A DNA stretch of 64,000 nucleotides from Desulfonema magnum (lineage in GTDB: Bacteria; Desulfobacterota; Desulfobacteria; Desulfobacterales; 4be13), in NCBI RefSeq assembly GCF_017377395.1, contig NZ_CP061800.1, positions 3,429,633 through 3,493,632 of the forward strand, written 5' to 3'. Positions within the stretch are counted from its first letter, which is position 1. The number at the start of each line of letters is the position of its first letter. Position numbers and translations under genes: made by a program. Shown here one piece after another: positions 1 through 58,367 of the stretch. The notes under the pieces are model-generated. The model saw nothing but the letters and a program-made list of their open reading frames with translations. It ran no database searches and was not told the DNA's origin.

Positions 1-1400
1 GCTTTAAGAGAAAGTTGGAGCGCCACTATCATTTGCACTTTTTCATTGTGGATCACCGGCTGTGCAATAAAAGCGACAGGTTCGCCATTGCTTGGTTCAT
101 AAGGTTCAAAATCAGCCATACCGAATTGTTTGCTCTCCAATACCTGCATGACCAGTTTGCCAAGCCCGGATTCGGCATATTTGCCGCTGATTATGTTCGT
201 GCCGTAATCTTTTTCTTTCGTCACTGTATAAAAAACCCTTCCCCGGGGATGAATCAGAAAAAGATCATAGTAGTCGTACATTTTGATATATTTGGCAAAA
301 AAATCATCCGCTTCTCCCTCCTCCTTCGGCGCAATTGCCTCTTCCATGGTTATGGTGCTGATAATGGCCCAGTCAAGACCCGGGATGTTCAGGGGAGCAT
401 AGCTGGACACCTCCATCTCTCCGGTGCTTCCCTGTTTGACCATTTGCCCGGAGGTGCCGGAAAGTGCTTTATCAATATCAGGCCCGGATTTTTTTTCTCC
501 GATTTTGCCTTTCTTAACCACTCTGTCGCTACGCAAACTGACAATGCCGTGTTTTCTGCCTACGAGATAAGTCTCGCCCGTGTTTCCCATGCCCTGACGC
601 CTTTGGACGATGGTGTTGATGGAATCCGTGGGTATCTGTAGTACGACTATGCCCAAAAGTTTGCCTGAACCATCATTAATAGGGGCACCGATAAAGGCTG
701 TCTGCTGACCTTTGCTGGGTGTGTATGGTGCAAAGTCCTCGATAACCATGTTCTTTGTCCTGACCACCTTATGCCAAAGCCGGGCCAGGCCTTCGTCTTT
801 GTGGGGGCCGTAAGCCAGATTCGTGCCGAGATCATTCTCTTTGGCAACCGTAAACATCACATGCCCGTGGGATGCACAAATGAGGAAAATATCATAATAT
901 CCGTAGGTTTTAACATAGTCAGTCAGATATTTGCCATATTTGTCATAAATCTTTTTGTATTCATCGGTCGAGACATCGTAAGGCCCCTTACGAGTGAATT
1001 TCATCTCATCATGATATTTTTTGATATGCCTGTACATATTCAGAACATCATCACTTTTCGCAAGGGCAAGGATGTCCTTTTGCACTCTTGCAAAAAGTGC
1101 TTTAATCTGGGCTTTTTTGAGTTCCTGCGCGGTTTCAAGCTTATCAAAAGCAGCTTTTCTGAATGACTCCGCGGTTTCCACCAGAACACTCATGTCTCCC
1201 CTGCGTTCGGCGAAAAATTTTTCAATCTGGGTCTTTTTGATATCACGCACAGACTCGAGCTGTCCATATGATCTCGCCATGAGCGCTTCGGCGGCCAGTC
1301 TGCTACCCTGCCATTCCACAATAATAATGGGAAGAATGCCCACGACCAAAAACAGACCAATAAGTTTCCATTTCATTTTAATATCTTTAAACCTGATCAT
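1..1400 (-). CDS. methyl-accepting chemotaxis protein with double-Cache sensor, N-terminal part (C-terminus beyond window edge)
   Basis: Minus frame is open from the window edge to ATG at 1400 (MIRFKDIKMKWKLIGLFLVVGILP...), with GGAGG 8 nt upstream. It is colinear and clearly homologous to the N-terminal sensor region of the 12627-15521 MCP. Plus-strand ORFs 15-641, 771-1166 and 1021-1422 are antisense shadows of it. Confidence 0.8.
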   Translation of the reverse strand, partial: MIRFKDIKMKWKLIGLFLVVGILPIIIVEWQGSRLAAEALMARSYGQLESVRDIKKTQIEKFFAERRGDMSVLVETAESFRKAAFDKLETAQELKKAQIKALFARVQKDILALAKSDDVLNMYRHIKKYHDEMKFTRKGPYDVSTDEYKKIYDKYGKYLTDYVKTYGYYDIFLICASHGHVMFTVAKENDLGTNLAYGPHKDEGLARLWHKVVRTKNMVIEDFAPYTPSKGQQTAFIGAPINDGSGKLLGIVVLQIPTDSINTIVQRRQGMGNTGETYLVGRKHGIVSLRSDRVVKKGKIGEKKSGPDIDKALSGTSGQMVKQGSTGEMEVSSYAPLNIPGLDWAIISTITMEEAIAPKEEGEADDFFAKYIKMYDYYDLFLIHPRGRVFYTVTKEKDYGTNIISGKYAESGLGKLVMQVLESKQFGMADFEPYEPSNGEPVAFIAQPVIHNEKVQMIVALQLSLK

Positions 1401-1420
1401 CTTGTTACCTCCTTTTTTCT

Positions 1421-1560
1421 GATTATAACGGATTTGGGGGAGGGCTGACCAAGCCCTGTAAGGGCTTCATATTTATAGCAGTATTCATCATGCCAGGCCG
1501 GCAAAGCCCCGTGGGGGCGGCATATTTACAGCATGATTTACTACAAAAATCCCCCGGCCC
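1421..1560. repeat. solo end of MITE-like element (CTGATTATAACGGATTTGGGGGAGGGC) plus GCCAAGCCCCGTGGGGGCGGCATATTT motif pair
   Basis: Same 27-bp terminus as the elements at 4481, 4651, 49346 and 59914. Its internal motif is the unit of the 51-bp arrays at 35.4 and 38.3 kb. Confidence 0.5.
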
Positions 1561-1589
1561 CCTTCAAAGGGCAATGCTGTTGACTCAGG

Positions 1590-3870
1590 CAGTTCCGAAC
1601 GGATCCGGAGTGCAAAAATTATATTTTTGCGGCTGCGGAAAAGCATTTTTCGCACTCCGGAGAAAATCCCGGAAAACCGGCTTAGGCCTAAGGGGTCCGG
1701 AGTGCAAAAATTATATTTTTGCGGCTGCGGAAAAGCATTTTTCGCACTCCGGAGAAAATCCCGGAAAACCGGCTTAGGCCTAAGGGGTCCGGAGTGCAAA
1801 AATTATATTTTTGCGGCTGCGGAAAAGCATTTTTCGCACTCCGGAGAAAATCCCGGAAAACCGGCTTAGGCCTAAGGGTCCGGAGTGCAAAAATTATATT
1901 TTTGCGGCTGCGAAAAAGCCTTTTTCGCACTCCGGAGAAAATCCCGGAAAACCGGCTTAGGCCTAAGGGGTCCGGAGTGCAAAAATTATATTTTTGCGGC
2001 TGCGGAAAAGCATTTTTCGCACTCCGGAGAAAATCCCGGAAAACCGGCTTAGGCCTAAGGGTCCGGAGTGCAAAAATTATATTTTTGCGGCTGCGGAAAA
2101 GCATTTTTCGCACTCCGGAGAAAATCCCGGAAAATTGGCTTAGGCCTAAGGGGTCCGGAGTGCAAAAATTGGTGGTGTTCTAAAACTGGACTTGTTCCGA
2201 TATTTGCCAAATTGATTCAGAGGGTTAAAAAATTCAGCTCCACTTTTAGAACATTACCCAAAAATTATATTTTTGCGGCTGCGAAAAAGCATTTTTCGCA
2301 CTCCGGAGAAAATCCCGGAAAATTGGCTTAGGCCTAAGGGGTCCGGAGTGCAAAAATTATATTTTTGCGGCTGCGAAAAAGCATTTTTCGCACTCCGGAG
2401 AAAATCCCGGAAAATTGGCTTAGGCCTAAGGGGGCCGGAGTGCAAAAATTATATTTTTGCGGCTGCGAAAAAGCATTTTTCGCACTCCGGAGAAAATCCC
2501 GGAAAATTGGCTTAGGCCTAAGGGGTCCGGAGTGCAAAAATTATATTTTTGCGGCTGCGAAAAAGCATTTTTCGCACTCCGGAGAAAATCCCGGAAAACC
2601 GGCTTAGGCCTAAGGGGGCCGGAGTGCAAAAATTATATTTTTGCGGCTGCGGAAAAGCATTTTTCGCACTCCGGAGAAAATCCCGGAAAACCGGCTTAGG
2701 CCTAAGGGGTCCGGAGTGCAAAAATTATATTTTTGCGGCTGCGGAAAAGCATTTTTCGCACTCCGGAGAAAATCCCGGAAAACCGGCTTAGGCCTAAGGG
2801 TCCGGAGTGCAAAAATTATATTTTTGCGGCTGCGGAAAAGCATTTTTCGCACTCCGGAGAAAATCCCGGAAAACCGGCTTAGGCCTAAGGGGTCCGGAGT
2901 GCAAAAATTATATTTTTGCGGCTGCGGAAAAGCATTTTTCGCACTCCGGAGAAAATCCCGGAAAACCGGCTTAGGCCTAAGGGTCCGGAGTGCAAAAATT
3001 ATATTTTTGCGGCTGCGGAAAAGCATTTTTCGCACTCCGGAGAAAATCCCGGAAAACCGGCTTAGGCCTAAGGGGTCCGGAGTGCAAAAATTATATTTTT
3101 GCGGCTGCGGAAAAGCATTTTTCGCACTCCGGAGAAAATCCCGGAAAACCGGCTTAGGCCTAAGGGGTCCGGAGTGCAAAAATTATATTTTTGCGGCTGC
3201 GGAAAAGCATTTTTCGCACTCCGGAGAAAATCCCGGAAAACCGGCTTAGGCCTAAGGGGTCCGGAGTGCAAAAATTATATTTTTGCGGCTGCGGAAAAGC
3301 ATTTTTCGCACTCCGGAGAAAATCCCGGAAAACCGGCTTAGGCCTAAGGGGTCCGGAGTGCAAAAATTATATTTTTGCGGCTGCGGAAAAGCATTTTTCG
3401 CACTCCGGAGAAAATCCCGGAAAACCGGCTTAGGCCTAAGGGGTCCGGAGTGCAAAAATTATATTTTTGCGGCTGCGGAAAAGCATTTTTCGCACTCCGG
3501 AGAAAATCCCGGAAAACCGGCTTAGGCCTAAGGGGTCCGGAGTGCAAAAATTATATTTTTGCGGCTGCGGAAAAGCATTTTTCGCACTCCGGAGAAAATC
3601 CCGGAAAATCGGCTTAGGCCTAAGGGGTCCGGAGTGCAAAAATTATATTTTTGCGGCTGCGGAAAAGCATTTTTCGCACTCCGGAGAAAATCCCGGAAAA
3701 CCGGCTTAGGCCTAAGGGGTCCGGAGTGCAAAAATTATATTTTTGCGGCTGCGGAAAAGCATTTTTCGCACTCCGGAGAAAATCCCGGAAAACCGGCTTA
3801 GGTTTAAGGGGGCCGGAGTGCAAAAATTATATTTTTGCGGCTGCGGAAAAGCATTTTTCGCACTCCGGAT
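1590..3870. repeat. tandem array A: ~25 copies of a 92-bp (some 91-bp) unit carrying a 14-bp-stem hairpin (CCGGAGTGCAAAAAT...ATTTTTCGCACTCCGG)
   Basis: Unit spacing measured directly (CCGGAG at 1605 and 1697). Subfamily variants (GCGAAAAAGC/AAATTGG at 2270-2560) give a higher-order pattern. An ~89-bp unrelated insert with its own 14-bp inverted termini sits at 2171-2259. Degenerate hairpin copies continue to ~4000. Confidence 0.95.
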
Positions 3871-4057
3871 GATTACCTCACATGCGAAAATAAAATTTTC
3901 GCACTCCGGATAAAAATAGTGAAAAAAATCTTTTTTCCAGATGCTTAAAAAAGAACGGAATTTTTGCGCACTACCTCGATATGCAAAAATCCCGATTTGC
4001 TTTGTTTTTCCGTGGTATTGAAAAATCTCATCAGAATGATGCCTTTTTCAGCGTCGT

Positions 4058-4429
4058 TTAAGGCTGTTTGAGGACTTCCTGAATCGCATTCAACAGTTCT
4101 TTTCGATCTATAGGCTTTGTGAATGTGAACGCGGCTCCGAATTTTTTGGCGATGTTCAGATATGTTTCCGCACCGATTCTGCCGCCGCCGGATATCGCAA
4201 TAATTTTCATTTTCGGAGATATCTGTTTTAGTTCAATGATCGTCTCAATGCCTTCCTTTTCAGGCATGATAATATCTGTGATGACCAGGTCCGCGGGACT
4301 GTTATTGCTGACTTTGATCCCCTCTTTCCCGTCAGGAGCTTCAAGCACTTCGTATCCCTCACGCTCCAGCATTGTCTTAAGCATAGAACGAACCAGTTCA
4401 TCATCTTCAATAATAAGAATACGTGCCAT
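4058..4429 (-). CDS. single-domain response regulator (CheY-like receiver)
   Basis: 123 aa, MARILIIEDDE...DLVITDIIMP...KIIAISG; AGGAGG RBS 9 nt upstream of the ATG. Confidence 0.9.
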   Translation of the reverse strand: MARILIIEDDELVRSMLKTMLEREGYEVLEAPDGKEGIKVSNNSPADLVITDIIMPEKEGIETIIELKQISPKMKIIAISGGGRIGAETYLNIAKKFGAAFTFTKPIDRKELLNAIQEVLKQP

Positions 4430-4480
4430 AATTATACTTCCTCCTATTTTTATATCGTAATCTGCTAAGTTAAAAAAATT

Positions 4481-4642
4481 CTGATTATAACGGATTCGGG
4501 GGAGGCCCGCGAATATGACATCGGATTTAAGGATTTACCGGATATTCCGGGCCGGGACATCCGTCTCATCCTCCTGTCCGCTGTCATATTGTCCGATACC
4601 GCGGAAAAAAAACCGGGCATCCTCAAAATCCTTTATAATCAG
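4481..4642. mobile_element. MITE-like non-autonomous element, ~162 bp, 27-bp terminal inverted repeats
   Basis: CTGATTATAACGGATTCGGGGGAGGCC ... (G)CCTC(C)AAAATCCTTTATAATCAG; no coding capacity. An identical copy follows immediately. Confidence 0.7.
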
Positions 4643-4650
4643 CAGGTTTT

Positions 4651-4812
4651 CTGATTATAACGGATTCGGGGGAGGCCCGCGAATATGACATCGGATTTAA
4701 GGATTTACCGGATATTCCGGGCCGGGACATCCGTCTCATCCTCCTGTCCGCTGTCATATTGCCCGATACCGCGGAAAAAACCCCGGGCCTCCCCAAAATC
4801 CGTTACAATCAG
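4651..4812. mobile_element. MITE-like element, second tandem copy
   Basis: Near-identical to 4481-4642. TIRs CTGATTATAACGGATTCGGGGGAGGCC / GGCCTCCCCAAAATCCGTTACAATCAG. Confidence 0.7.
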
Positions 4813-4924: not shown

Positions 4925-7147
4925 TCATCCCCGGGGAATATTTTCCTCAGTGTTTTCCTGTTTCAATGTTCGAAGAATAATTTTTGCAAGATCACGTGGC
5001 TCAACGGGCTTTCTCACATATTCCCGGATGCCCATGGCCCTGATTTTTTCCTCCCTGATAATTTCTCCGGCTCCGCTGGAAAGAATAATCGGAATACCCG
5101 GGCGAATATCAAGCAGTTTTTTTGCCAATTCAACGCCGGTCATACCTGGCATCTTCATATCTGCAATTACAAGATCGAATTTGTCCGGATTCGTCCGGAA
5201 GCGTTTCAGGGCTTCAATGCTGTCTGAAAACGTTGTGACATTGAAACCAAAGCGGGCCAAGTTCCTTCTTACTGTATCTCCAAGCATCACTTCGTCATCA
5301 ACAAACAGAATGTTTCCTCCGGTATTCGGAAAAGATGACGGATCATTTTTTGACCGGGATATACTGACTTTCTGATCTGTAACAGGGAGAAAAACATCAA
5401 ACCGTGTTCCCTTGCCAGGTTTGCTTTCAACGATGATCACCCCGTTGTGATCCTTAACAATTCCGTGAACAGTGGAAAGCCCCATGCCTGTGCCTTCTCC
5501 CACAGGTTTTGTTGTGAAGAAAGGATCAAAAATCCGATCCGCTGTTACCTTGTCTATTCCATGGCCCGTGTCTTTCACTGTGAGCCTTGCGTATCTTCCT
5601 TCTCTCAAATCCGGATGTTCTGCGGCAAACTCAGGGCTGACCGCAACCTCTTTCAGGCAAACCTCCAGTATCCCTCCCTGATTACGCATTGAATAGTAGG
5701 CATTGGTACATAAATTTATGATCACCTGATGAATTTGAGTGACATCCGCCAGGACTGGTCCGCAGTCTTTGTCAATGGTGTGCCGAATATCTATGTTCGT
5801 CAGCATGGTTTTTTTTAAAAGTTTCAAAGATTCATTGATAATCGGATGAATCAGGACAGGAATGCGGTCTGTTTCAGTCTGCCTGCTGAAAGTAAGTATC
5901 TGACTGATAAGATCAGATGCCCGCTTTGCAGCGATGAGAATTTGGGATATATCATTATATGCCACACTGTCTTTGGGAATATTATCCATTGCCAAATCAG
6001 CATACCCGAGTATGCCATAAAGAATGTTGTTGAAATCATGGGCAATGCCGCCTGCCAGGGTTCCGAGGGACTCCATTTTTTGTGAATGCCGGACCTGGGC
6101 TTGCAGTTTGTCCCGTTCATCTTCCGACTGTTTACGCCGGATGGCAAGCGAATAGAGGTCTGCCAGTTTTTCAAGCAGTTCAATATCTCTCCGGGTATAG
6201 TTCTGATCCGAATTCGCGACAGAAATTTGTCCGACCAGCTTTTCACCGAGCATCGCAGGTACAGATAAAAAATTACGGATCGGCAAATGGTCTTCAGGGG
6301 TTCCGCAGTAACTGGGGTCGTCTGCCGGGGCATTTGTCAGCAGAGGTTTTTTGTTCTTCAAAACCCATCCCCAAAGTCCTGTAAATTTTTTAAATATAAA
6401 ATTTTTATCCGGAATGCGGCAGGATTTCCAAGTCTCCCGGGTGAGTGTGGGAGTAATAAGACAAGCTGTCTCCGGTTCGATATAACCGGCAAAACCAGTC
6501 ACACTCGTTGTAAAATGTTTTGCTTTCTCCAGCACCAAATAAGAAATCTCTGCAATGGATTCGGAAGAAATAACGGTTTTGGCCAGCTCGGTCAAAGCCG
6601 CGTTAACATCCGCCTCCCGCAACAATGCTTTCTCAGCCTGCTGGCGTTTTTTGTTTTCCAACTGAAGTTGTTTATTTGTTTTTAAGAGTTCAGAGGTGCG
6701 TTGGGCAACCAATTCTTCAAGGTGGTCATGATGCTTCCTTAATTCCGTAAGAATGACCTTGTTTTCCATACGCAATCTTCTTTTTTCCAATGCCTGACGG
6801 ATGACGTTAAAAAGAACTTCGATATCCTCCAAGGGTTTCTTCAGAAAATTAAATGCCCGGTTATCTTTTAATGTTTCAATGGCATTATCAACAGTGGCAA
6901 AGGCTGTCAGAACAATAATTTCAACATCTTCATCCGTTTTTTTAAGCTGTTTGATCAGCTCTGTTCCCTCCATTTCCGGCATTTTGAGATCAGTGATCAC
7001 CAGATCAAAGGGTTCGGATCGAAAGACATCAATGGCTTTTTTTCCGTCTGATGCGCTGGTGATCCTGAAGCCCTCATCAGACAAAACAAACTCGAGAAAT
7101 TTCAGGGTATCCGGTTCATCATCTACGATAAGTATCTTCTCATTCAT
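4925..7147 (-). CDS. hybrid sensor histidine kinase/response regulator (REC - coiled coil - GAF-like - HisKA/HATPase - REC)
   Basis: 740 aa. N-terminal receiver (ILIVDDEPD...DLVITDLKMP), H-box HDFNNILYGILGYADLA, G-box GTGMGLSTVHGIV and C-terminal receiver (ILFVDDE...DLVIADMKMPGMTG). AAGAGG RBS. Confidence 0.9.
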   Translation of the reverse strand: MNEKILIVDDEPDTLKFLEFVLSDEGFRITSASDGKKAIDVFRSEPFDLVITDLKMPEMEGTELIKQLKKTDEDVEIIVLTAFATVDNAIETLKDNRAFNFLKKPLEDIEVLFNVIRQALEKRRLRMENKVILTELRKHHDHLEELVAQRTSELLKTNKQLQLENKKRQQAEKALLREADVNAALTELAKTVISSESIAEISYLVLEKAKHFTTSVTGFAGYIEPETACLITPTLTRETWKSCRIPDKNFIFKKFTGLWGWVLKNKKPLLTNAPADDPSYCGTPEDHLPIRNFLSVPAMLGEKLVGQISVANSDQNYTRRDIELLEKLADLYSLAIRRKQSEDERDKLQAQVRHSQKMESLGTLAGGIAHDFNNILYGILGYADLAMDNIPKDSVAYNDISQILIAAKRASDLISQILTFSRQTETDRIPVLIHPIINESLKLLKKTMLTNIDIRHTIDKDCGPVLADVTQIHQVIINLCTNAYYSMRNQGGILEVCLKEVAVSPEFAAEHPDLREGRYARLTVKDTGHGIDKVTADRIFDPFFTTKPVGEGTGMGLSTVHGIVKDHNGVIIVESKPGKGTRFDVFLPVTDQKVSISRSKNDPSSFPNTGGNILFVDDEVMLGDTVRRNLARFGFNVTTFSDSIEALKRFRTNPDKFDLVIADMKMPGMTGVELAKKLLDIRPGIPIILSSGAGEIIREEKIRAMGIREYVRKPVEPRDLAKIILRTLKQENTEENIPRG

Positions 7148-9171: not shown

Positions 9172-9354
9172 GTTTTTTTTTCCTTTCGTTTTTAAAAAAG
9201 ACTTCCGAAGTTTCGGAAACTTCGGAAGTGATCGCCAATTGGCTTAAGTACCCGGACAAAAGTTTTCCGGTATTTTTATCCGAATCTCATTTAAGCTGGC
9301 TCATGCGGCTCTGCTGATAATTCTGCCCGAAAAAATATGTCCAGGTACTTAAAA

Positions 9355-11470: not shown

Positions 11471-11580
11471 GCTTTCTCCTGTAAAAGTTAAGAATTGAAA
11501 ATTGAAAACCTTAATTCTCAACTTTCAATTTTGGATTACACAATTCATTATGATAATTTTTAATTTTCAATTTTCAATTC
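11471..11580. repeat. AT-rich octamer microsatellite (AATTGAAA / TTCAATTT / CTCAATTC units) in MCP intergenic region
   Basis: Visible runs aattgaaaattgaaaa ... ttttcaattttcaattctcaattc. The same unit family recurs at 43173-43200, 43400-43430 and 58220-58366. Confidence 0.7.
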
Positions 11581-12555
11581 TCAATTCTGTTCCAGAGTTC
11601 TCTTGGTGAGAATAAAGTTATGCTGGACTAAACGAAACACATCTCCTGACACAATTTTCTCTTTGGTGTTTTTCCAACTGGCATAGCGTGAAGCGTGTTT
11701 TTGTGTCAGGCTGCTGTTTCCGCTTCTGACTTTCAGTTCAGCCGCGATAACCTGGGTCAGATCAAATACATCAGCAGGAGAAATGTCATCGCAATCATTG
11801 ACTTCCACAAGAAGAATCGGCTCATATCCGCCTTTGTTCATGTAGAACTTGGAAATATTCATATAAACATAATACAGAAGCTTATAGACATATCTGGGAA
11901 TGACCCCGCTCACCGGCTGTTTTGGAAAAGAAAACGTCTTATATTTTACCCCGGCTTCATGGGCAATTCCCTCAGCTACGGGTAAAATATGTTTCACAAC
12001 AGCTTCATAGACTCGTTCCGGTGTGGCCCAGTCCGTGGTAAGATTCTTTTTCCTTGCGATCTCATGATGATGCAGTGAAACCTGTCTCAGCATTTGGAAA
12101 ACGTCATTTGGTGTCCGGGTAATTCTCTGTTCCATTGATTGCAAGAAATTATTTTCCGCTATAAGATGACTGCTGATCAGGCTGAGAACCTGATATACAT
12201 TCTCAGGTCTTGTCCTGATCACGTCCAGGTTACGCGCCTCACTGAGCCTGACCGGATCAATGGCATTGTTATGGAGAAAATTGAACTCCTCGACCACGCT
12301 GACAGCCTTGTTATAGACATTCCGAGGTCTGAGATTGTCACTGATTCGCTTTTTGGTTAATGTGCGGGTCAGCCCGTGCGCTGCCATGAGCGAATTATCA
12401 ATGGATTTTGCCAGATAGTAAACATCTGTGGGCGTGACAGCCTTTTCCGTCTCAATTCCCAATGCATCCGATGGGCATAGCGGAAAACAAAGAACACTGA
12501 TGGCTATCAGAATAAGATAAATAAAACAGTTGAAAATTTTTGGCCTCAAATTCAT
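11581..12555 (-). CDS. hypothetical secreted protein with seven internal P-x-(D/N)-V-(Y/F) repeats
   Basis: 324 aa. N-terminal signal peptide. Repeated TPTDVYYL / RPENVYQVL / TPNDVFQML / TPERVYEAV / SPADVFDLT motifs. Embedded between MCP genes on the same strand. Confidence 0.6.
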   Translation of the reverse strand: MNLRPKIFNCFIYLILIAISVLCFPLCPSDALGIETEKAVTPTDVYYLAKSIDNSLMAAHGLTRTLTKKRISDNLRPRNVYNKAVSVVEEFNFLHNNAIDPVRLSEARNLDVIRTRPENVYQVLSLISSHLIAENNFLQSMEQRITRTPNDVFQMLRQVSLHHHEIARKKNLTTDWATPERVYEAVVKHILPVAEGIAHEAGVKYKTFSFPKQPVSGVIPRYVYKLLYYVYMNISKFYMNKGGYEPILLVEVNDCDDISPADVFDLTQVIAAELKVRSGNSSLTQKHASRYASWKNTKEKIVSGDVFRLVQHNFILTKRTLEQN

Positions 12556-12626
12556 AAGCTCCTCCCGGTTTTTGATAAGTTTAAACAGCGTTAACCTCTC
12601 TCAGAATTTCGCTTTGCTGAAACAGC

Positions 12627-15521
12627 TTAATATTTTTCAAACTCGTCATCATAATCGTCATCATATTTTCCGCTTTTGCTCATCTCATTAAAATCTGTGG
12701 AAACTTTGGCACCTGTTTTTGTTTTTTCCATATTAGTATCTTTGAGTTTTTGTCTCTCTTTGGCCGACAGCAGTTTTCTTTCAGGGTCTGTTTCGGGTTC
12801 GGTCTCGGATGCTGTTATCTGTTCTGCATCATCAAGTTTGAAATAACCAATTGTGTTACGGAGTTGTACAGCCTGACTCGTGAGTTCTTCAGATGTTGAG
12901 GCCATTGCTTCGGATGCTGAGGCCATCTCCTCAGATACTGTCGTGTTCTGCTGAATCACCTGCTCCAACTGCTGAATCGCTTTGTTGATCTGTTCGGCAC
13001 CTGTACTTTGTTCATTGCTTGCTGCGCTGATCTCCTGGACCAGTTCTGCTGTTTTCTCAATATCCGGTACGAGCCGGGCCAGCATTTCTCCTGCCTTTTC
13101 TGCAATTTCTACGCTGGAGATTGATAACTCGGCAATTTCAACGGCAGACCTCTGAGTAAGTTCAGCCAATTTGCGAACCTCGGAAGCCACCACTGCAAAT
13201 CCTTTGCCGTACTTTCCGGCCCGGGCAGCTTCAATCGCGGCATTTAAAGCCAGCAGGTCTGTCTGACGGGCAATATCCTCAATCACAGATATCTTCTGAG
13301 CGATATCCCTCATCGCCACGACGGTTCTGGCCACAGCGTCTCCACTTTCCCGGCCGTGCTGGGCAGATTGTAATGCAATTTTTTCGGTTTGTCTCGCATT
13401 ATCCGCATTCTGAGCGATATTCGCAGACATCTGTTCCATGGACGCTGATGCTTCTTCAGCCGAGGCCGCCTGTTCCGCGGCACCCTGGGACATTTCCTCA
13501 GAACTCGAACTTATCTCATTCGCACTGGAACTCAGCCCCAGGCTTCCGCTGGCAACATTGTCGGCCGCATGTTTCACCTCCGTCACAACATTCCTAAGTT
13601 TTAATATCATTCCTCCCAGGGCATCCGCAAGAATACCAATCTCATCTTTCTGGTTTACGTTTATCTTGGCATTGAGATTCCCCTCAGCCACTGACTTGGC
13701 AAAATAAACGCCTCTGGTCAGGGGCGTTGAAATACCCTTTGCAATAAAAAATGCGAAAACAGCCACCACAATGGCTATCCCCGCACCCATAAACAACATA
13801 TATTTCATCAGATCACGGATTGGCTGCCTGACCTCATTTTCATCGATCTCGGCGAGCAGGGTCCATGTCAGATTTTCCAGTTTCAGCGGAGTATATGCTG
13901 AAAGCACGTCTTTTCCATTATAATCTTTGATGATCTTCTTCCCTGTGGTGCCGGAAATCGCTTCTCTGACAGATTCAGTATCAACTTTTCCCAGGGACGG
14001 ATTATCAAAAGACGCGTTTACCGTGCGATTCACCGGATCAAGAAATGAATCCGAACGCATGAGTTTATCAGACCCCACCAGATAAGTTTCCCCGGTTTTT
14101 CCCATGCCCTCACGCTGCTGCATGATGCTGTTGATCTTTTTTAGAGACAATTGGAGGACCACAATCAGTTCTGTTTCATTGTTATAAAGCAAAGGCTGGG
14201 CCATAAATGCCGCGGGTTTGTTATTACTGGGTTCATAGGGTTCAAAATCACCTATGCCAAAAGTTTTGGTCTGCAATACTTTTCTGATCAGCTTGCCAAG
14301 TACAGAATCAGCATATTTGCCGCTGATCATGTTGCTCTGATAATCTGCTTCGTGTTTCACAGAATAAAAGACTTTGCCCCGGGGATGGATTAAAAAAAGA
14401 TCATCATAGTTATACTTTCGGATGTATTTGGCAAAAAAATCATCTTCTTCTCCGCCTTGCTTGGGCGCAATGGCTTCCTCCAGCTTCATCGTGCTGATGA
14501 TGGCCCAGTTCAATCCCCTGATTTCTATCGGATCATAACTGGCCAGTTTCAAGTCTCCGGTACAGCCGATTTTTATCCTCTGACCGGATTTGCCTTGCAG
14601 CGCCATCTCAATTTCAGGGTTGGATTTTTTTTCGCCAATTTTGCCTTCTTTGAGTACCCTGTTGTTGCGGTAAGTGGTCTTTCCGTCAAGTCTGCCGACA
14701 AGATAAGCTTCTCCTGTCTTTTCCATCCCTTCATGTTGCTGCATGATAGTGTTGATTTTTTCTATTGACATCTGAAATGCGACATAACCTTTCACTTTCC
14801 GACGCGCATCTCGTATTTTGCCTATCATAAAAGCGGCGTACTTATTGTCGGAGGGCGCATAAGACTCAAAATCGGCAATCACGATATCCTCGGCCCCCGG
14901 AGATTGAACCGTCTGAAAAGCTTTTCCTAGCCCTGAATGTTTCAGTTCACTTTCAGGGAGATTTATCCCCAGATCAGATTCCTTGGCAACAGTGTAAACA
15001 ATACAGCCATCAGAGTGAATGAGAAAAATATCATGCCAGCCATTGGCCTTCATAATATCCCTCATACGGGAGTCATACTTTTCCGCAAGGGCATTCCACT
15101 CAGGGGTCAGCGTCTTCTCTCCTGCTGCCTCGAATATTTCATGAAACTCGGTTATGGCTGCCGTAACACAGGGATCATTCCTGAGTAACTGCAACTCCTT
15201 CATCATCGTCTCAAGATAATCCCTGATATGTGCTTTCCGGATCTCCTGAGAAATTGCCAATTTTTCAAAAGCCTTTTCTATGAAGACAGCTACGGTTTCT
15301 GCCAGAATACTCATATCTCCTTTGCGTTCGATAAAAAAGTCCTCAATATAGGCTTTTTTGATTTCACGCACCGCCTCAAGCTGTTCATAGGACTTTGACA
15401 TAAGGGCATCTGTGGAGAGCTTGCTGCCCCACAGCCCCAGAAGAATAAGGGGAATAATGCCTGTCATAAGAAACAGAGCAATGAGTTTGGGTTTCATTTT
15501 AATATCTCTGAGCTTAATCAT
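12627..15521 (-). CDS. methyl-accepting chemotaxis protein with double-Cache periplasmic sensor
   Basis: 964 aa. TM, ~550 aa periplasmic region with two Cache-like halves, TM, HAMP, MCP core ...[38 protein letters not shown]... Confidence 0.9.
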
Positions 15522-15537: not shown

Positions 15538-15665
15538 AGTGTTAGGTGTTGGGTGTCAGGTGTTAGGTGTTAGGTGTCAGGTGTTAAGTGTTAAGTGTTA
15601 GGTGTCAGGTGTCAGGTGTCAGGTGTTAGGTGTCAGGTGTTAGGTGTTAGGTGTTAAGTGTCAGA
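15538..15665. repeat. octamer microsatellite GTGTYARG (~16 units) directly upstream of the MCP start codon
   Basis: ggtgttaggtgtcaggtgttaagtgttaag... Same unit at 53401-53433 and, as reverse complement, at 60700-60830. Confidence 0.85.
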
Positions 15666-15711: not shown

Positions 15712-17865
<2,154 letters not shown>

Positions 17866-23441: not shown

Positions 23442-24254
23442 TATTGTTTCACCGTTGTCAGTTTCAATTTCAATTGAAATATGAAACCGATTGAAAATTT
23501 GGGTTCTGTGATTTTTCTGAGGAGAATGATTTGAAATCTTTCTCCGCTGTTTTGGGATTAATAAAATGAGCAATCTGTTTTCAGTTGTCAGTCAGCTTTT
23601 GGCGGGCGCATGTTTCCATGACTGCTGCTTTCTCCCCTGCCGGAAAGGACATCTGATGTCTTGATGGCTGAATCTGAAAGCTGATGGCTCAGTTTAAAAA
23701 TTATGCTGTTCTGACACCGTTCCCTGGTTATAAATGAACCTTGTTAATAAAAAATTTCCTTTTGCGGAAAGGCAATATAGGAATAAAGGCGTTTGTGTGT
23801 CAAGTGGTAAAGAACAAGTTTTACAGGGCAGAACAGTTTTATGACAAAAAATATATATGCTTGTAAAAGATAAATATTATAAGCAGTTAAATCTTTAAAA
23901 CGATAATCAGATTTTTTTTCTGTCCGACCGGATCGGATAAAAAAATCCGGGCAGTGTTCTAAAAACAGAGCTAAATATTATAACCATTTGAATTAATTAT
24001 TTAAATATTGCAAAAAGTCCAGCTTTGGAACACCACCAAAAACCTGATTATTGAGTTTAAAAAAAGAAAATGCTCAAAGGTAGCATATCACCACCCTCAA
24101 ATACTCTTTCTGCCCTATTGATTTATTTATACCTCTGTTTTATGAAATGAGTTAATCATGGCTTGCAGGCAGTCTGTTAATCATAGCAGCCTGTTTTCAA
24201 AAAAAATCAAATTTATTTTATGACAAATTCATCAGGAATTGAAAGGAGGAGAAA

Positions 24255-25639: not shown

Positions 25640-26185
25640 GAAAAAATTTTCAGGCCCCCGCGGAGGACAGGACGAACGGGCAAGAAACCCGGCTTTTCCG
25701 ACCGGGGAATAGTTCGTCCGGGAAAAAAGCCGGGTTTCTCCGCTGTCCCGCACGCAGCCCGGAAACCGCGGACGGGGAAGAAATCCGGCTTTTCCGGCCG
25801 GGGGGAATATTTCGTTCGAGGAAAAAAGCCGGGTTTCTCCGCTGTCCCGCACGCAGCCCGGAAACCGCGGACGGGGAAGAAACCCGGCTTTTCCGCCAGG
25901 TGAAATACTACGTCCGGGGAAAAAGCCGGGTTTCTCCGCTGTCCCGCACGCAGCCCGGAAACCGCGGAGGGCGAAGAAACCCGGCTTTTACGACCGGGAT
26001 ACACTTCCTCCGGGGGAAAAAGCCGGGTTTCTCTGCTCTCCCGCACACTGGACGGACACAGCGAAGGGCGAAGAAACCCGGCTTTTACGACCGGGATACA
26101 CTTCCTCCGGGGGAAAAAAGCCGGGTTTCTCCGATTTCCCGCACTCATCCCGGAAACTTTTTGATCTGCTGATAATAGCAAAAAA
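25640..26185. repeat. REP-like family 2: ~5 tandem ~96-104 bp units, each a GAAACCCGGCTTTTCCG...CGGAAAAAGCCGGGTTTC hairpin, ending CCCGGAAACTTTTTGATCTGCTGA
   Basis: Same element singly at 47870-47995, 53660-53815 and degenerate at 60340-60420. ORFs 25529-26230 on both strands are repeat-derived. Confidence 0.8.
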
Positions 26186-29816: not shown

Positions 29817-30779
29817 TCAGTTCTCGTAAGAATACCCTTCCAGAAAATCAAACTGCGCGATCCGGGCTTTTACAGCGTCAACAAGGTGCGGAGGCCATTC
29901 TGTCTCATGGCGGCTTTTTACGGGAGATTTATAAACAATGCCCGCGCAGGCATTCAGGTAATCCGCGGTGGTTTCAACGCCTAAAAAATGACAGATATCA
30001 TGCAGATACTTTGAAGGCTCCTCAACAAAGGCTTCGTGTCTGACACAAAACATATCTGAATCAGGTATGCGCTGCCGGATGTCATGAATGGTGTGGCAGG
30101 CTGAAAAATAATTCTCAATCATATATGTCAGGGGTTTGTCATCCCGCAGGAACATGGTGGTGATGTTATCATAAGGATTTCTGGTGACAAGAATCACCTT
30201 AACCTCTGTTTCCGCTGTGTCTCGTAATTGCTGAAAAAGTTTTGGTTTGGAACTGAGTCTCACAGTTGTGGACCCGCCCCGCTTATCCCCGATGACCCGG
30301 ATTTTCTCATATCGTCCCTGATACTGACCCGGAACAAGATAGAGGTGCTGTTTGCCATGACGTCCGCTTTTTTTTCGGCCTGTCAGGGAGCGGGACCTTT
30401 TCAGGATAAAATGAAATATCTGTTCCCTGCTGAATCCCGCGTCAACATATTTGAGTGCGTCAAGTTCATCCGAAAGAATAATATCCGGGTGCGCGTCAAG
30501 CAGACTGCCAATGATGGTGTGGCCGCTCCTCGGATGGCCGATGAATATGCAAAATGTCCTTACCTCTCGGAATACATCCTGTGAGATAAGATTCCTGATA
30601 CTGCGGGAATGATACCGCCAGATCAGGGGACGGGCAAGATAAAGCCATGCTTTGTTCAGCTTTTTATAGTTTTCTGTGTATCTTATTCTGTTATAATAAG
30701 GTCTCAGGGACTTTTTTAGTTTAGATAAAACCTGATGTGTTGTTGCCATGTTTTTCTTTTCACTTTTCAATGATGTCAT
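29817..30779 (-). CDS. sulfotransferase family protein, tandem paralog
   Basis: 320 aa; GHPRSGHTI and ILVTRNPYDNIT motifs; colinear with 28851-29798. Confidence 0.8.
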   Translation of the reverse strand: MTSLKSEKKNMATTHQVLSKLKKSLRPYYNRIRYTENYKKLNKAWLYLARPLIWRYHSRSIRNLISQDVFREVRTFCIFIGHPRSGHTIIGSLLDAHPDIILSDELDALKYVDAGFSREQIFHFILKRSRSLTGRKKSGRHGKQHLYLVPGQYQGRYEKIRVIGDKRGGSTTVRLSSKPKLFQQLRDTAETEVKVILVTRNPYDNITTMFLRDDKPLTYMIENYFSACHTIHDIRQRIPDSDMFCVRHEAFVEEPSKYLHDICHFLGVETTADYLNACAGIVYKSPVKSRHETEWPPHLVDAVKARIAQFDFLEGYSYEN

Positions 30780-30829: not shown

Positions 30830-31140
30830 GATGCTTTTTCGCAAATTTTTCCGGAGTGCGAAAAATGCTTTTTCGCCAGTCTCTCCGGAGTGCGAAAATG
30901 CTTTTTCGCCATTTTCTCCGGAGTGCGAAAATACTTTTTCGCAAATTTTTCCGGAGTGCGAAAATGCTTTTTCGCCATTTTATCCGGAGTGCGAAAATAC
31001 TTTTTCGCAAATTTTTCCGGAGTGCGAAAATGCTTTTTCGCCATTTTATCCGGAGTGCGAAAAATACTTTTTCGCAAATTTCTCCGGAGTGCGAAAATGC
31101 TTTTTCGCAAATGCAAAAATAAAATTTTTGCACTCCGGAT
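30830..31140. repeat. tandem array B: ~9-10 alternating ~33-34 bp units (CCGGAGTGCGAAAATGCTTTTTCGCC... / ...ATACTTTTTCGCAAATTTTT)
   Basis: CCGGAG spacing 34/33/33 measured. Motif is the reverse-orientation relative of the array-A hairpin arm. Confidence 0.9.
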
Positions 31141-31147
31141 TTATGTC

Positions 31148-33976: not shown

Positions 33977-34231
33977 TTAATCATTACTGGCAAAGGCATT
34001 TTTTCTATAAAAATTCAGAATAAAATCATATAATTGTTCGTTATCGTTCTGAACGATAACGGATTTCAGGTCAAACAACAGGCACTCGTTACGAGGCTCT
34101 GCCTCCCGTATAAAAAATCTGTTTTTTTTTGATTTTATCATGCCTGAGTCTCTTAGAGCGTGTTTGAAAAGTAAAGAATATGAGTAATCATAAGTGGCTG
34201 ATTTTTTTGCCACGAAGGCACGAAGGTTCAC
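33977..34231 (-). pseudogene. duplicated fragment of the Rha/ORF6N-like gene
   Basis: ...LFDLKSVIVQNDNEQLYDFILNFYRKNA matches residues ~70-100 of the 32996-33910 product. ~100 bp of DNA around 33990-34075 duplicates 33640-33720, including the cgttatcgttctgaacgataacg palindrome. Confidence 0.5.
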
Positions 34232-34520
34232 GAAGTCTCTTTATGGCTGATTTTTTGCCACAAAGACACGGAGGCACGAAGGTTCACGAAGTCTCTTTGT
34301 GGCTGATTTTTTGCCACGAAGACACGAAGGTGCGAAGGTTCACGAAGTCTTTTTGTGGCTGATTTTTTGCCACGAAGACACGAAGGCACGAAGGTTCACG
34401 AAGTCTCTTTGTGGCTGATTTTTTGCCACGAAGACACGAAGGTGCGAAGGTTCACGAAGTCTCTCTGTGTCTCTTTGTGTCTTCGTGCCTTTGTGGCTGA
34501 TTTTTTTGCCTCGAACACAC
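34190..34520. repeat. tandem array C: ~6 copies of a 49-56 bp unit (GGCTGATTTTTTGCCACGAAGACACGAAGGCACGAAGGTTCACGAAGTCTCTTTGT) with internal CACGAAG heptamers
   Basis: GGCTG spacing 49/56/56/56 measured. Confidence 0.85.
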
Positions 34521-43194: not shown

Positions 43195-43400
43195 AGTTTA
43201 ACCTCGTTAACCTCGTTAACCTCGTTAATCTCATTCCCACGCTTCGCGTGGGAATGCAGAAGGGACGCTTCGCGTCCCGTGGCTGGACGGATTTGCGTCC
43301 GGCCGCCGGACCGATTCGGGACGCGAAGCGTCCGCCGGACCGATTCAGGACGCGAAGCGTCCGCCCTGCATTCCCACGCGAAGCGTGGGAACGAGAGAAA
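43195..43400. promoter_or_regulatory. GC-rich nested palindrome cluster between the helicase and methyltransferase genes
   Basis: (CCTCGTTAA)x3, perfect hairpins CATTCCCACGC-TTC-GCGTGGGAATG and GGGACGC-TTC-GCGTCCC, 2x 32-bp direct repeat GCCGGACCGATTCGGGACGCGAAGCGTCCGCC, and a closing CATTCCCACGCGAAGCGTGGGAA. A related hairpin lies at 58195-58225. Confidence 0.5.
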
Positions 43401-51657: not shown

Positions 51658-51687
51658 AATCTCAGAAGCAGAAAAGCGGTAAATCCG

Positions 51688-51800
51688 GAGTGCAAAAAAT
51701 TCTGCTTAAGTCCGTTTTTGCACTCCTTTGGAAATCGTATTTTTCATTGCTGCCTTAAATATTGCCTGCCTCAAATGCCTGCCCCCACGCCCCGATCAGT
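51688..51800. repeat. 113-bp direct repeat, copy 1 (flanks the TA cassette)
   Basis: aaatccggagtgcaaaaaattctgc...cattgctgccttaaatattgcctgcctcaaatgcctgcccccacgcc; second copy at 52425-52540; carries the CCGGAGTGCAAAAA motif of arrays A/B. Confidence 0.85.
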
Positions 51801-52373: not shown

Positions 52374-52424
52374 ATCGAACTCCTTTTATGAAGCAGAAAA
52401 GCGTTGATTGGTTGAAAAAAGCAG

Positions 52425-52540
52425 TAAATCCGGAGTGCAAAAAATTTTGCCTAACTCCGTTTTTGCACTCCTTTGGAAATCGTATTTTTCATTGCTGCCT
52501 TAAATATTGCCTGCCTCAAATGCCTGCCCCCACGCCTCGA
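52425..52540. repeat. 113-bp direct repeat, copy 2
   Basis: Near-identical to 51688-51800 up to ...cccacgcc. Its distal ~45 bp overlap the last codons of the cNMP-binding gene (…AWGQAFEAGNI*). Confidence 0.85.
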
Positions 52541-53045
52541 TCAGCTTGTCTGTCCGATTTTGGAGACGCAGCGAAACAATCTCGCTCACCCGTCCCATAA
52601 TCAGATAGCCCAGTTTGGGGTCTTTGTCAAACATGGCTTTGAGATTGGCGGCCGGGACGGAAAAAGCCCGGACAGGCTGTGAACACTGAGCCGTCGCTGT
52701 CCACTGACTTCCCGCGTCACCCACCAGGGATGTCCAACCGAAGACCTCTCCAACCCCCACCCTCTCAACAATGATCGGCTTTTTCAGGACATCAAACCGG
52801 ACCCGGATGGCTTCCTCATATTCAATATCTGTTTTCATTATTTTTTCTTTAAACATGAGGCTCAGCTCCACCTCTCCTTCCAGAACACCGTAAAGATTCA
52901 GAGCCTTATCCCCCCAGTTAAAAACAACATCATCTGAGTTGAACTCCAGGATATCACATTTTGGGGCAATCACCGAAAGTGCGTCATCGGACACATCTGA
53001 AAAAAACTTAAATTCTGACAGCAGCTTTTTATCCAAGATAGTCAC
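52500..53045 (-). CDS. cyclic-nucleotide-binding (cNMP) domain protein
   Basis: 181 aa; beta-barrel cNMP-binding pattern (…EFNSDDVVFNWGDKALNLYGVLEGEVELS…VGVGEVFGWTSL…). Confidence 0.65.
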   Translation of the reverse strand: MTILDKKLLSEFKFFSDVSDDALSVIAPKCDILEFNSDDVVFNWGDKALNLYGVLEGEVELSLMFKEKIMKTDIEYEEAIRVRFDVLKKPIIVERVGVGEVFGWTSLVGDAGSQWTATAQCSQPVRAFSVPAANLKAMFDKDPKLGYLIMGRVSEIVSLRLQNRTDKLIEAWGQAFEAGNI

Positions 53046-53815: not shown

Positions 53816-54144
53816 CTTATACTGAAAAATCAGGTCAGGGAAACCGAATTTCTTCTATTTACAAAAATAATGGAAAAAGGTAATTTAAAAAAGACATATC
53901 CTAAGCTTTTAAGATTATGATCACTATTTTGTCCCACGGACAGGGGGAGACGACAAACATTATCAAAAATAAGCGTCCGCGGAATGCCAAACCTACAGTT
54001 TGCCGGTTTCCGCATTTCGGAAATTTGGTTCCTGCTTTGCCAAACTGTAAGTTTGGCACTCCGGAGGATGTAACGACTTAGCTATACAAAACAAACGGAT
54101 GTTTATTGCTGTTTTTAATCTATATGACAGAAGGAAGATATAAA

Positions 54145-58366: not shown

Positions 58367-58367
58367 C

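What the first reader, a model, noticed from the sequence alone, without database searches (positions are those of the whole stretch)
1590..4000. 92-bp hairpin-unit tandem array (~25 copies) with higher-order structure and an internal mini-insertion
Each unit carries a 14-bp-stem hairpin (CCGGAGTGCAAAAAT/ATTTTTCGCACTCCGG). Subfamily variants cluster at 2270-2560. An ~89-bp unrelated segment with its own imperfect inverted ends (TGTTCTAAAACTGGA...TCCACTTTTAGAACA) is inserted at 2171-2259. The same arm motif, in opposite orientation, builds array B (30830-31140) and the 113-bp direct repeats flanking mazEF. This looks like one motif family dispersed and amplified around the genome. The array lies between a response-regulator gene and an MCP gene inside the che locus.
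Basis: seen in the sequence. Interest (0 to 1): 0.6.

Follow-up and report, generated by a model that had tools for sequence, protein, structure and literature searches.

The report
Tandem array of REP-like palindromes
A 2.3-kb non-coding stretch between two chemotaxis genes of Desulfonema magnum consists of 24 near-identical copies of a hairpin pair from a dispersed palindromic repeat family, a known kind of bacterial "junk-like" repeat that is unusually large here.

Summary
Window 1604-3869 holds 23 full 92/91-bp units plus a truncated 24th and one extra solo hairpin (TRF 24.6 copies). Each unit has two inverted copies of a small tagged hairpin, TCCGGAGT + GCRAAAA-loop-TTTTYGC, followed by a 36-bp linker found nowhere else in the window. 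Unit 7 is split by a 90-bp MITE-like insert with an AAAAAT duplication.

The same tagged hairpin builds array B (30831-31141), two hairpins inside 128-nt direct repeats around mazEF, and a solo copy at 54036-54067. It also occurs, solo, paired or in tandem, in many Desulfobacterales MAGs. In those copies the stem covaries while the tag stays fixed.

The source is Desulfonema magnum. At least six other D. magnum loci carry related tandem arrays with different unit lengths.

Best reading: a new REP/REPIN (BIME-like) family, amplified locally together with its flank, as described on a smaller scale in Pseudomonas. It is non-coding, matches no Rfam family, and shows no promoter- or terminator-like consensus. 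The tag is neither GTAG nor CGTC. A partner RAYT transposase could not be looked for genome-wide.

Verdict: a known kind of element, a new family, at exceptional scale. Moderate-to-low interest.

The parts
1604..3869 (.). Array A: 23 full 92/91-bp units plus a 24th unit cut after its hairpin. Each unit is REP-F (CCGGAGT GCAAAAA ttata TTTTTGC), GGCT, REP-R (GCGGAAAA gca TTTTTCGC ACTCCGG), then a 36-bp linker (AGAAAATCCCGGAAAACCGGCTTAGGCCTAAGGGGT).
   Evidence: TRF. Unit-by-unit dissection. Covariance model R1 finds 24 forward and 24 reverse hits. Folding. The linker is unique to this array within the window.
3881..3912 (-). Extra solo REP (TCCGGAGT GCGAAAA tttta TTTTCGC) at the RR-proximal end of the array.
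   Evidence: R1 hit, 44.6 bits, E=4e-8. Sequence.
2155..2618 (.). Units 7-10, the variant block: G34A, which repairs the A·C mismatch in the REP-R stem, and CC73-74TT in the linker.
2170..2259 (.). 90-bp MITE-like insertion in the loop of REP-F of unit 7. Inverted ends are TGGTGGTGTTCTAAAACTGGA and TCCACTTTTAGAACATTACCC. AAAAAT is duplicated at 2164-2169 and 2260-2265.
   Evidence: Sequence. Pattern search finds both ends. Fold -25.9 kcal/mol, z=-3.1. R1 finds only the two split halves of this REP.
23950..24040 (.). Second, diverged copy of the same MITE-like element, with the same 80-bp end-to-end spacing.
30831..31141 (.). Array B: 8 direct REPs at 33-bp period (66-bp higher order) plus one inverted REP at 31110-31141. 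It lies between two minus-strand genes (31148-32854, no Pfam match, and sulfotransferase 29817-30779).
   Evidence: TRF. Sequence. R1 hits. Pfam.
51672..51799 (+). Left copy of the 128-nt direct repeat. It contains a long-loop REP hairpin at 51682-51724.
52417..52544 (+). Right copy of the 128-nt direct repeat (96% identical), with a REP hairpin at 52427-52469. Together the two copies bracket mazF (51821-52162 -) and a small upstream ORF.
54036..54067 (-). Solo REP of the GCCAAAC/GTTTGGC stem subtype, upstream of an M20 peptidase gene.
   Evidence: Best R1 hit in the window, 46.1 bits..
4058..4429 (-). Single-domain response regulator (CheY-like), the gene upstream of the array on the minus strand.
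   Evidence: PF00072, E=5.5e-25.
3..1400 (-). N-terminal 466 aa of a dCache_1 sensor, probably an MCP, that runs off the window. It is the gene downstream of the array.
   Evidence: PF02743. Homologues are MCPs.
1422..1451 (-). Sigma-70-like promoter match (TGGTCA-18-TATAAT) between the array and the MCP start. It is part of a 29-nt module that is also found upstream of the RR gene (4477, 4647).
1551..1570 (-). Terminator-like hairpin plus T-run immediately after the array on the minus strand.
   Evidence: a consensus match only.

Best explanation
Array A is a non-coding tandem amplification of a REPIN-like doublet together with 36 bp of adjacent sequence. A REPIN-like doublet is two inverted copies of a small REP-type palindrome.

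The repeated module is a tagged hairpin. It has an invariant 8-nt tag (TCCGGAGT) abutting a 7-bp stem (GCRAAAA/TTTTYGC) and a loop of either about 5 nt or about 13 nt. This module forms a dispersed extragenic family in Desulfonema magnum and related Desulfobacterales.

Proposed mechanism (inferred, not shown):
- Single hairpins or doublets are spread through intergenic DNA by a hairpin-and-tag-recognising enzyme, most plausibly a RAYT-type Y1 transposase.
- Wherever two copies lie close in direct orientation, unequal recombination or replication slippage expands 'hairpin + local flank' into arrays.
- Array length and period are therefore locus-specific: 33, 74, 92, about 106, 144 and 153 bp in D. 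magnum.

The near-identity of most units indicates recent expansion or ongoing homogenisation.

The array probably has no dedicated function. Its likely side effect is a long, highly structured, untranslated stretch after the response-regulator gene. This would uncouple that gene from the MCP gene, which has its own promoter-like site.
For: Shown:
- The array is regular, and its variants are clustered.
- Each unit contains two opposed hits to the hairpin model.
- The family occurs at five intergenic places in the window.
- In about 38 Desulfobacterales contigs it occurs as solo copies, inverted pairs and tandem arrays. Non-Desulfobacterales hits to the same 15-mer are coding sequence (topoisomerase Zn-finger CPECKN) with no hairpin partner.
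- Stems covary while the tag stays fixed. Stem position 3 takes GC, AU, CG and UA, and position 7 takes AU, CG and UA. There are 28 double-change cells against 6.9±2.4 in shuffles.
- Partner REPs that were not required to match the search pattern still carry ACTCCGGA.
- Related MAGs hold REP tandem arrays with periods of 44, 51, 59 and 62 bp, often at contig ends or N-gaps.
- Translating array A retrieves nine D. magnum 'uncharacterized proteins' whose REP-encoded peptides repeat at periods implying 74, about 106, 144 and 153-bp units.
- There is no long ORF through the array, no Rfam family, and no promoter or terminator excess.
- A MITE-like element sits in a REP loop, as expected if REPs are insertion targets (PMC3733652).

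Literature precedent:
- In P. fluorescens SBW25, REPINs form tandem repeats 'including the flanking sequences'. [quoted passage not shown]
Against: - No RAYT or IS200-like ORF was found in the window or in 39 related loci. This is a weak test, because such genes are single-copy.
- The tag is neither GTAG nor CGTC, the two tags that cover most described REPs.
- The family is conserved across several genera, which is broader than many REP families.
- The hairpin instances used for covariation were selected for pairing, so the 99% paired figure is circular. Only the variety of pair types is informative.
- No transcript or copy-number data are available.
Confidence: 0.7

Rival explanations
1. The array works at the DNA level as a protein-binding array. 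The 48 phased copies of a conserved site (TCCGGAGT plus an A/T-tract hairpin) would bind a nucleoid protein, gyrase or a regulator. This would make the array a topological barrier or a titration sink inside the che locus, as BIME-2 clusters bind gyrase in E. coli (own knowledge).
For: - The tag is invariant and contains the palindrome TCCGGA.
- It is conserved across genera.
- Arrays recur next to gene starts.
- Each unit contains A/T tracts.
Against: - No binding protein has been identified.
- Array periods differ from locus to locus (33 to 153 bp), so there is no common phasing.
- Stem covariation points to selection on a folded single strand rather than on a duplex sequence.
Confidence: 0.1
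2. The array is a functional RNA locus. It would be a multi-copy structured RNA that is transcribed and either cut into unit-length sRNAs or used as a sponge for an RNA-binding protein. Each unit carries 3-4 GGA motifs, reminiscent of CsrB-type decoys.
For: - Folding is strong on both strands (z = -7.7 and -9.0).
- No terminator-like site was found on the minus strand between the RR stop and the array, so read-through from the RR gene is plausible.
- GGA motifs are present in the tag and the linker.
Against: - No promoter-like site occurs per unit, and there is no U-tract terminator.
- No Rfam match.
- The family shows no consistent orientation relative to neighbouring genes.
- The linker is unique to this locus, so nothing beyond the REP itself is conserved.
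Confidence: 0.07
3. The hairpins are classical MITEs or solo terminal inverted repeats of a DDE-transposase IS family, not REPs, and the arrays are nested or abortive transposition products.
For: - Inverted 12-15-bp arms (GGAGTGCAAAAA/TTTTTGCACTCC) resemble short TIRs.
- An IS110 transposase and a true MITE-like element are present in the window.
Against: - Many members are single 26-nt hairpins with one tag only.
- Each half has its own covarying mini-stem.
- Array units are exact head-to-tail copies that include a unique linker, which indicates duplication rather than transposition.
- Target-site duplications around family members were not examined.
Confidence: 0.06
4. The array, or its copy number, is an assembly artefact.
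For: - Homologous arrays break short-read MAG assemblies, appearing as N-gaps and contig ends.
- The copy number was not verified independently here.
Against: - The array has ordered internal landmarks: one MITE-like insertion, a variant block and 91-bp units.
- It lies in an 8.03-Mb single contig of D. magnum.
- An independent 2010 read set (Logan SRR058920) matches nearby window sequence at 99.95%.
- Analogous arrays exist at other loci and in other genomes.
Confidence: 0.03

Closest known systems
Tandemly repeated REPIN clusters of Pseudomonas fluorescens SBW25 (Bertels & Rainey 2011, PMC3116915)
   Same: - The unit is two inverted REPs that form a hairpin, plus flanking sequence, repeated head-to-tail with near-identical copies.
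- There is an extra single REP at one end.
- The arrays are extragenic.
- Several arrays occur per genome, with different module lengths.
   Different: - 24 REPINs and 2.3 kb here, against a maximum of four REPINs and about 700 bp in SBW25.
- A different sequence and tag.
- The host is a Desulfobacterota filament.
- RAYT association is shown in SBW25 but was not testable here.
E. coli BIME-2 clusters (REP Y/Z2 with conserved linkers; own knowledge of Gilson, Bachellier and Hofnung)
   Same: REPs alternate in orientation, are separated by fixed linkers and are amplified in tandem in intergenic regions of operons.
   Different: - BIME-2 reaches about a dozen REPs, against 49 here.
- E. coli REPs carry GTAG and GC-rich stems. 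Here the tag is TCCGGAGT and the stems are A/T-rich.
- Gyrase binding was not tested.
GTAG- and CGTC-tagged REP super-families (Di Nocera et al. 2013, PMC3733652)
   Same: - A short stem-loop with a conserved tag at one foot of the stem.
- Solo copies, head-head dimers and tandemly reiterated clusters that carry flanking DNA.
- The elements act as insertion targets for other mobile elements.
   Different: The tag adjacent to the stem is GGAGT (ACTCC on the other strand), neither GTAG nor CGTC.
CRISPR arrays
   Same: Regularly spaced short palindromic repeats.
   Different: - The 'spacers' are identical.
- The repeats alternate in orientation.
- No leader or cas context was seen among the window genes that were scanned.

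Membership tests
REP / REPIN-RAYT system | Short (about 20-60 nt) imperfect palindrome, present in many copies and confined to extragenic DNA | tested here: met
   - The hairpin is 26-46 nt.
- It occurs at five intergenic sites in 64 kb.
- Hairpin-bearing copies in related contigs lie mostly between ORFs.
- The 15-mer is found 60 times against 0.05 expected.
REP / REPIN-RAYT system | Inverted doublets (REPINs) that fold into a long hairpin | tested here: met
   Array A units, the end of array B, and L016, L028, L030, L047, L049, L069, L071 and L110 all show REP-F, a short spacer and REP-R with the tags outward.
REP / REPIN-RAYT system | Conserved tag at the stem foot with a structurally conserved, sequence-variable stem | tested here: met
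   CGGAGTG is invariant in 30 distinct copies (this part was selected for). Four of the seven stem pairs show compensatory changes. Unselected partner REPs keep ACTCCGGA.
GTAG / CGTC REP super-families | Terminal tetranucleotide GTAG or CGTC next to the stem | tested here: not met
   The tag is TCCGGAGT, with GAGT/ACTC adjacent to the stem. The definition is taken from PMC3733652.
REP / REPIN-RAYT system | A cognate RAYT (Y1/HUH transposase, PF01797) in the same genome, typically flanked by the REPs | not testable with these tools
   - phmmer with IS200 TnpA and E. coli RayT, plus an HUH/Y motif scan, found nothing in the window or in 39 related loci.
- No Y1_Tnp was found among the 39 window ORFs scanned with Pfam.
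- The rest of the D. magnum chromosome could not be fetched.
REP / REPIN-RAYT system | Evidence of mobility (excision or insertion polymorphism) | not tested
   No sister strain was available. The linker pattern is absent from the metagenome collection.
BIME-2-type cluster | Alternating-orientation REPs with fixed linkers, amplified in tandem | tested here: met
   24 F and 24 R hits alternate at fixed spacing.
BIME-2-type cluster | High-affinity DNA gyrase binding | not testable with these tools
   This needs biochemistry.
CRISPR array | Direct repeats separated by unique spacers | tested here: not met
   The inter-repeat segments are identical from unit to unit, and the repeats alternate in orientation.
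Intrinsic terminator array | GC-rich stem followed by a U-tract | tested here: not met
   The consensus scan found no terminator-like site inside the array. Stems are A/U-rich with no T-run.
Tandem sRNA genes (NsiR1-like) or type III toxI repeats | A per-unit promoter and terminator, or a downstream ToxN-type toxin | tested here: not met
   No promoter-like site occurs in the repeat units themselves; the single match inside the array (2204-2233, +) lies in the MITE-like insert. The downstream gene is a dCache sensor. No Rfam hit.
MITE | Terminal inverted repeats plus a target-site duplication | tested here: met
   This row applies only to the 90-bp insert in unit 7. It has 17/21 inverted ends, an AAAAAT duplication and a second copy at 23950-24040. 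Target-site duplications were not tested for the REP hairpins themselves.

The most novel reading that the evidence does not exclude
The TCCGGAGT-tagged hairpins may not be RAYT passengers. They could instead be substrates of an undescribed, lineage-wide system in Desulfonema/Desulfococcaceae 'big bacteria'. Candidates are a different single-strand hairpin enzyme, or a host factor that recognises the tag. Such a system would actively generate kilobase satellite arrays next to genes, with a role in chromosome or transcript organisation.

Three things are not explained by the ordinary REP picture:
- the cross-genus conservation of the tag;
- the GCGNAGC mini-hairpin loops;
- the co-occurrence with other hairpin families and with heptanucleotide arrays.
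Probability: 0.1. Interest if true: 0.6.

Novelty: new member of a known kind. Interest (0 to 1): 0.3.

Why it matters
- It adds an undescribed REP-like family, with a third kind of tag, in a phylum where such elements are little studied.\n- It shows that REPIN-plus-flank amplification can reach 24 copies (2.3 kb), about six times the largest case reported for Pseudomonas.\n- These arrays inflate gene counts: D. magnum 'uncharacterized proteins' are translations of them.\n- They break short-read assemblies of related MAGs.\n- If a cognate RAYT flanked by these hairpins exists, the family would be a clean test of how tag and stem specify recognition outside the GTAG/CGTC classes.

Tried and rejected
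- Rfam at gathering and at permissive thresholds gave nothing meaningful. There are no tRNA or tmRNA genes.\n- The promoter/terminator scan gave no per-unit signals.\n- Coding repeat: rejected. The period is not a multiple of 3, ORFs are at most 202 aa, and the only database matches are spurious ORFs over analogous D. magnum arrays.\n- Sister-strain comparison failed. The linker pattern gave only 8 chance hits in metagenomes. The best homologue of the flanking MCP is 49% identical. D. magnum gene positions are not in the contig index.\n- Viral origin: only chance hits. Plasmid search with the insert: no match.\n- RAYT search with IS200 TnpA, E. coli RayT and an HUH/Y regex found nothing in the DNA available.\n- Orientation bias of REPs relative to neighbouring genes: mixed, no rule.\n- Sigma-54 promoter, integron attC and type III toxI readings were considered by inspection and dropped. 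The spacings and consensus boxes do not fit, and the neighbouring genes are unrelated.\n- Literature on Desulfonema genomes held in the library does not mention these repeats. The D. magnum genome paper is not held.
Full report
**Observation**

Tandem Repeats Finder reports one array at 1604-3869: period 92, 24.6 copies, 93% matches. Cutting at each CCGGAGTGCAAAAA gives 23 complete units (1605-3812). A 24th unit ends right after its hairpin (3813-3868). A further solo hairpin lies at 3881-3912.

Thirteen of the 23 units are identical to the 92-bp consensus, and four more (3, 5, 12, 14) differ only by lacking one G. The other variants are clustered:
- G34A occurs in units 4 and 7-10.
- CC73-74TT occurs in units 6-9.
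- The four 91-bp units alternate with 92-bp units, which is only a weak 183-bp higher-order pattern.

Unit 7 carries 96 extra bases. These are a 90-bp element (2170-2259) with 17/21-matching inverted ends, plus a duplicated AAAAAT. A diverged second copy of that element lies at 23950-24040.

The motif CCGGAGTGCRAAAA occurs 60 times in the window against 0.05 expected.

**Anatomy**

The 56-bp 'hairpin' is a doublet of a smaller module. The left half is CCGGAGT-GCAAAAA-ttata-TTTTTGC. The right half, read on the other strand, is CCGGAGT-GCGAAAA-atgct-TTTCCGC. Each half is therefore an 8-nt tag (TCCGGAGT) followed by its own 7-bp stem-loop.

The two halves face each other with the tags outward. 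The 36-bp linker that completes the unit occurs nowhere else in the window. It also has no array context in the metagenome collection.

The single-strand MFE fold of one unit is the long hairpin: 15 bp with a bulge, plus an inner stem, at -34.5/-31.5 kcal/mol. Three units fold with z = -7.7 to -9.0.

**The family**

A truncated scan of species-representative genomes with TCCGGAGTGCRAAAA returned 111 stretches. About 38 of these are contigs of Desulfobacterales MAGs: Desulfatirhabdium-labelled cave MAGs, GMC2/GMC6 bins, bin_101, S08.Bin136, and Desulfococcaceae HSG8 and HSG2.

In most of these contigs the motif is followed by a matching 3' stem. In the other phyla the 15-mer lies in coding sequence (topoisomerase-type CPECKN zinc fingers) with no partner, which serves as a built-in negative control.

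Members are solo hairpins, inverted doublets, or tandem arrays. Loops are either about 5 nt or T[A/G]AGCGNAGCGG.

Across 30 distinct short-loop copies the tag is constant while the stem changes in a compensated way:
- Position 3 takes GC, AU, CG and UA.
- Position 7 takes AU, CG and UA.
- There are 28 double-change cells against 6.9±2.4 in shuffles.
- The covariation score is 0.41, against at most 0.12 for slid registers.

One caveat applies. The copies were chosen for pairing, so the 99% paired figure is circular. The diversity of pair types is not circular. Partner REPs in doublets were not constrained by the search pattern, yet they keep ACTCCGGA while carrying different stems such as GCTAAAT, GTGAAAA and GCCAAAC.

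A covariance model built from these copies was run without filters. It finds the element at only five places in the window:
- array A (24 forward, 24 reverse, 1 solo);
- array B (8 direct plus 1 inverted, 30831-31141);
- two long-loop hairpins inside 128-nt direct repeats that bracket mazF (Pfam);
- a solo copy at 54036-54067.

**Source and genome-wide picture**

The ETF-QO encoded in the window is 100% identical to the Desulfonema magnum protein on an 8,027,777-bp contig. The next relative in the database is Desulfococcaceae HSG8, at 78%. A 2010 read set (Logan SRR058920) matches window 11558-13376 at 99.95%.

Translating an ORF that runs through array A and searching the protein database returned nine hits. 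All are D. magnum 'uncharacterized' or 'hypothetical' proteins, including dnm_006800, 033590, 054360, 062270, 092210 and 092240. Their sequences are chains of the peptides that the REP encodes in its three frames (PECKN, GVQK, RSAKI; FRTPE, FALR, FSHSG), with the same 14-residue F-to-R spacing. The periodicities imply units of about 74, about 106, 144 and 153 bp.

D. magnum therefore has at least six further REP-doublet arrays, each with its own linker. These have been annotated as genes.

Related MAGs hold arrays with periods of 44/83, 44, 62, 51 and 59 bp. Several of them sit at contig ends or across N-gaps.

**Context**

On the minus strand the order is as follows:
1. hybrid kinase (4925-7147);
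2. a 170-bp x2 repeat;
3. a CheY-like receiver (4058-4429);
4. array A;
5. a terminator-like hairpin (1570-1551);
6. a perfect solo copy of the window's other big repeat family (1504-1527);
7. a promoter-like TGGTCA-18-TATAAT (1451-1422);
8. a dCache sensor/MCP (from 1400).

CheA, more MCPs and another receiver lie further upstream.

Inside the array there are no terminator-like sites, and the only promoter-like match lies in the MITE-like insert, not in the repeat units. There is no Rfam family, even at permissive thresholds, no tRNA, and no ORF longer than 202 aa.

**Mechanism**

Shown:
- A tagged, structurally constrained hairpin family is dispersed in extragenic DNA.
- Local head-to-tail copies of 'doublet + flank' differ in period between loci.
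- Units within an array are near-identical.
- A different mobile element is inserted in a hairpin loop.

Inferred:
- The hairpins are spread by an enzyme that reads a tag plus a stem on single-stranded DNA. The known example is the RAYT/TnpA-REP Y1 transposase.
- Arrays then grow by unequal recombination or slippage between neighbouring direct copies.
- The consequence for the che locus would be a 2.3-kb structured, untranslated tail on the receiver-gene transcript, with the MCP gene relying on its own promoter.

This is the organisation described for Pseudomonas fluorescens SBW25. [quoted passage not shown] It also fits REP clusters in general (PMC3733652). The latter paper notes that REPs are insertion targets, which fits the MITE-like insert.

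**Limits**

- The RAYT step is untested. Nothing IS200- or RayT-like was found in the window or in 39 related loci. Such genes are single-copy, and the rest of the D. magnum chromosome could not be fetched.
- The tag is neither GTAG nor CGTC, so the family does not belong to the two described super-families.
- Orientation relative to neighbouring genes is mixed, which argues against a simple RNA-level role.
- Copy number was not independently verified. The ordered internal landmarks and the closed 8-Mb contig argue against an artefact.

**Verdict**

This is a real, non-coding REP/BIME-type array. It belongs to a previously undescribed family with a new tag, and it is amplified to an unusual size in a genome that is generally rich in tandem arrays. 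It is a new member of a known kind, of moderate-to-low interest.

The most interesting open point is which enzyme or host factor recognises the TCCGGAGT hairpin, and why the tag is conserved across genera.

Noticed in passing
window 35414-36738 and 38294-39666; also 1504-1527, 39681-39754, 60178-60242: A second hairpin-repeat family (51-bp unit, core AAGCCCCGTGGGGGCGGCATATTT) forms two arrays of about 26 copies. The arrays bracket hicA/hicB and two unknown ORFs. A perfect solo copy sits next to array A. One D. magnum spurious ORF (P0247) shows both families side by side at another locus.
   Followed up: partly
window 15539-15661, 17410-17507, 58300-58369, 11555-11586, 53403-53433: Heptanucleotide tandem repeats are present (GTGTTAG x17.6, GTTTCCA x14, CAACTTT x10 and others). 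The GTTTCCA run lies inside the CheA ORF (15712-17865 -), between the Hpt and dimerisation domains. Related MAG contigs also carry heptamer runs.
   Followed up: no
window 1415-1443, 4477-4505, 4647-4675 (within the 170-bp x2 repeat at 4479-4812): A 29-nt module, TTTTCTGATTATAACGGATT[T/C]GGGGGAGG, is repeated just upstream of the MCP and RR start codons. On the minus strand it contains TATAAT. It looks like a duplicated promoter/5'-UTR cassette.
   Followed up: partly
window 51672-51799 / 52417-52544: 128-nt direct repeats (96% identical), each with a REP hairpin, bracket a mazF (PemK) toxin and a small upstream ORF. This suggests the toxin-antitoxin module was inserted at, or duplicated with, a REP-bearing intergenic segment.
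   Followed up: partly
window 43225-43396, 60723-60784, 9176-9229, 59996-60070; L071 1420-1560: Other short hairpin modules (TTCCCACGC-GAAG-CGTGGGAA, GGACGCGAAGCGTCC and others) are shared at 85-94% identity with distant Desulfobacterales MAGs and sit next to REPs there. Many loops, including the long REP loops, contain GCGNAGC, the sequence of the very stable GNA DNA mini-hairpin (own knowledge).
   Followed up: no
window 60650-60879 and 60862-62202: An IS110-family transposase (DEDD_Tnp_IS110 + Transposase_20) is preceded by an 89-bp x2.6 repeat that includes CTAACAC-type heptamers.
   Followed up: no
window 25676-26157, 34211-34469, 50732-50937: Further tandem arrays are present (97 bp x4.9, 56 bp x4.6, 20 bp x10). 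Roughly a tenth of the 64-kb window is tandem repeat.
   Followed up: no
D. magnum proteins P0241-P0249 (dnm_006800, 033590, 054360, 062270, 092210, 092240 and others): Annotated 'uncharacterized proteins' of D. magnum are translations of REP arrays. They are probably spurious genes, and two even carry precomputed Pfam hits.
   Followed up: partly
window 39825-43172, 43416-46775, 35107-35583: A defence-like cluster lies next to the 51-bp arrays: an Eco57I/MmeI-type methylase-endonuclease, an SNF2/PLD helicase, and an HNH-like ORF whose N-terminus runs into the array.
   Followed up: no
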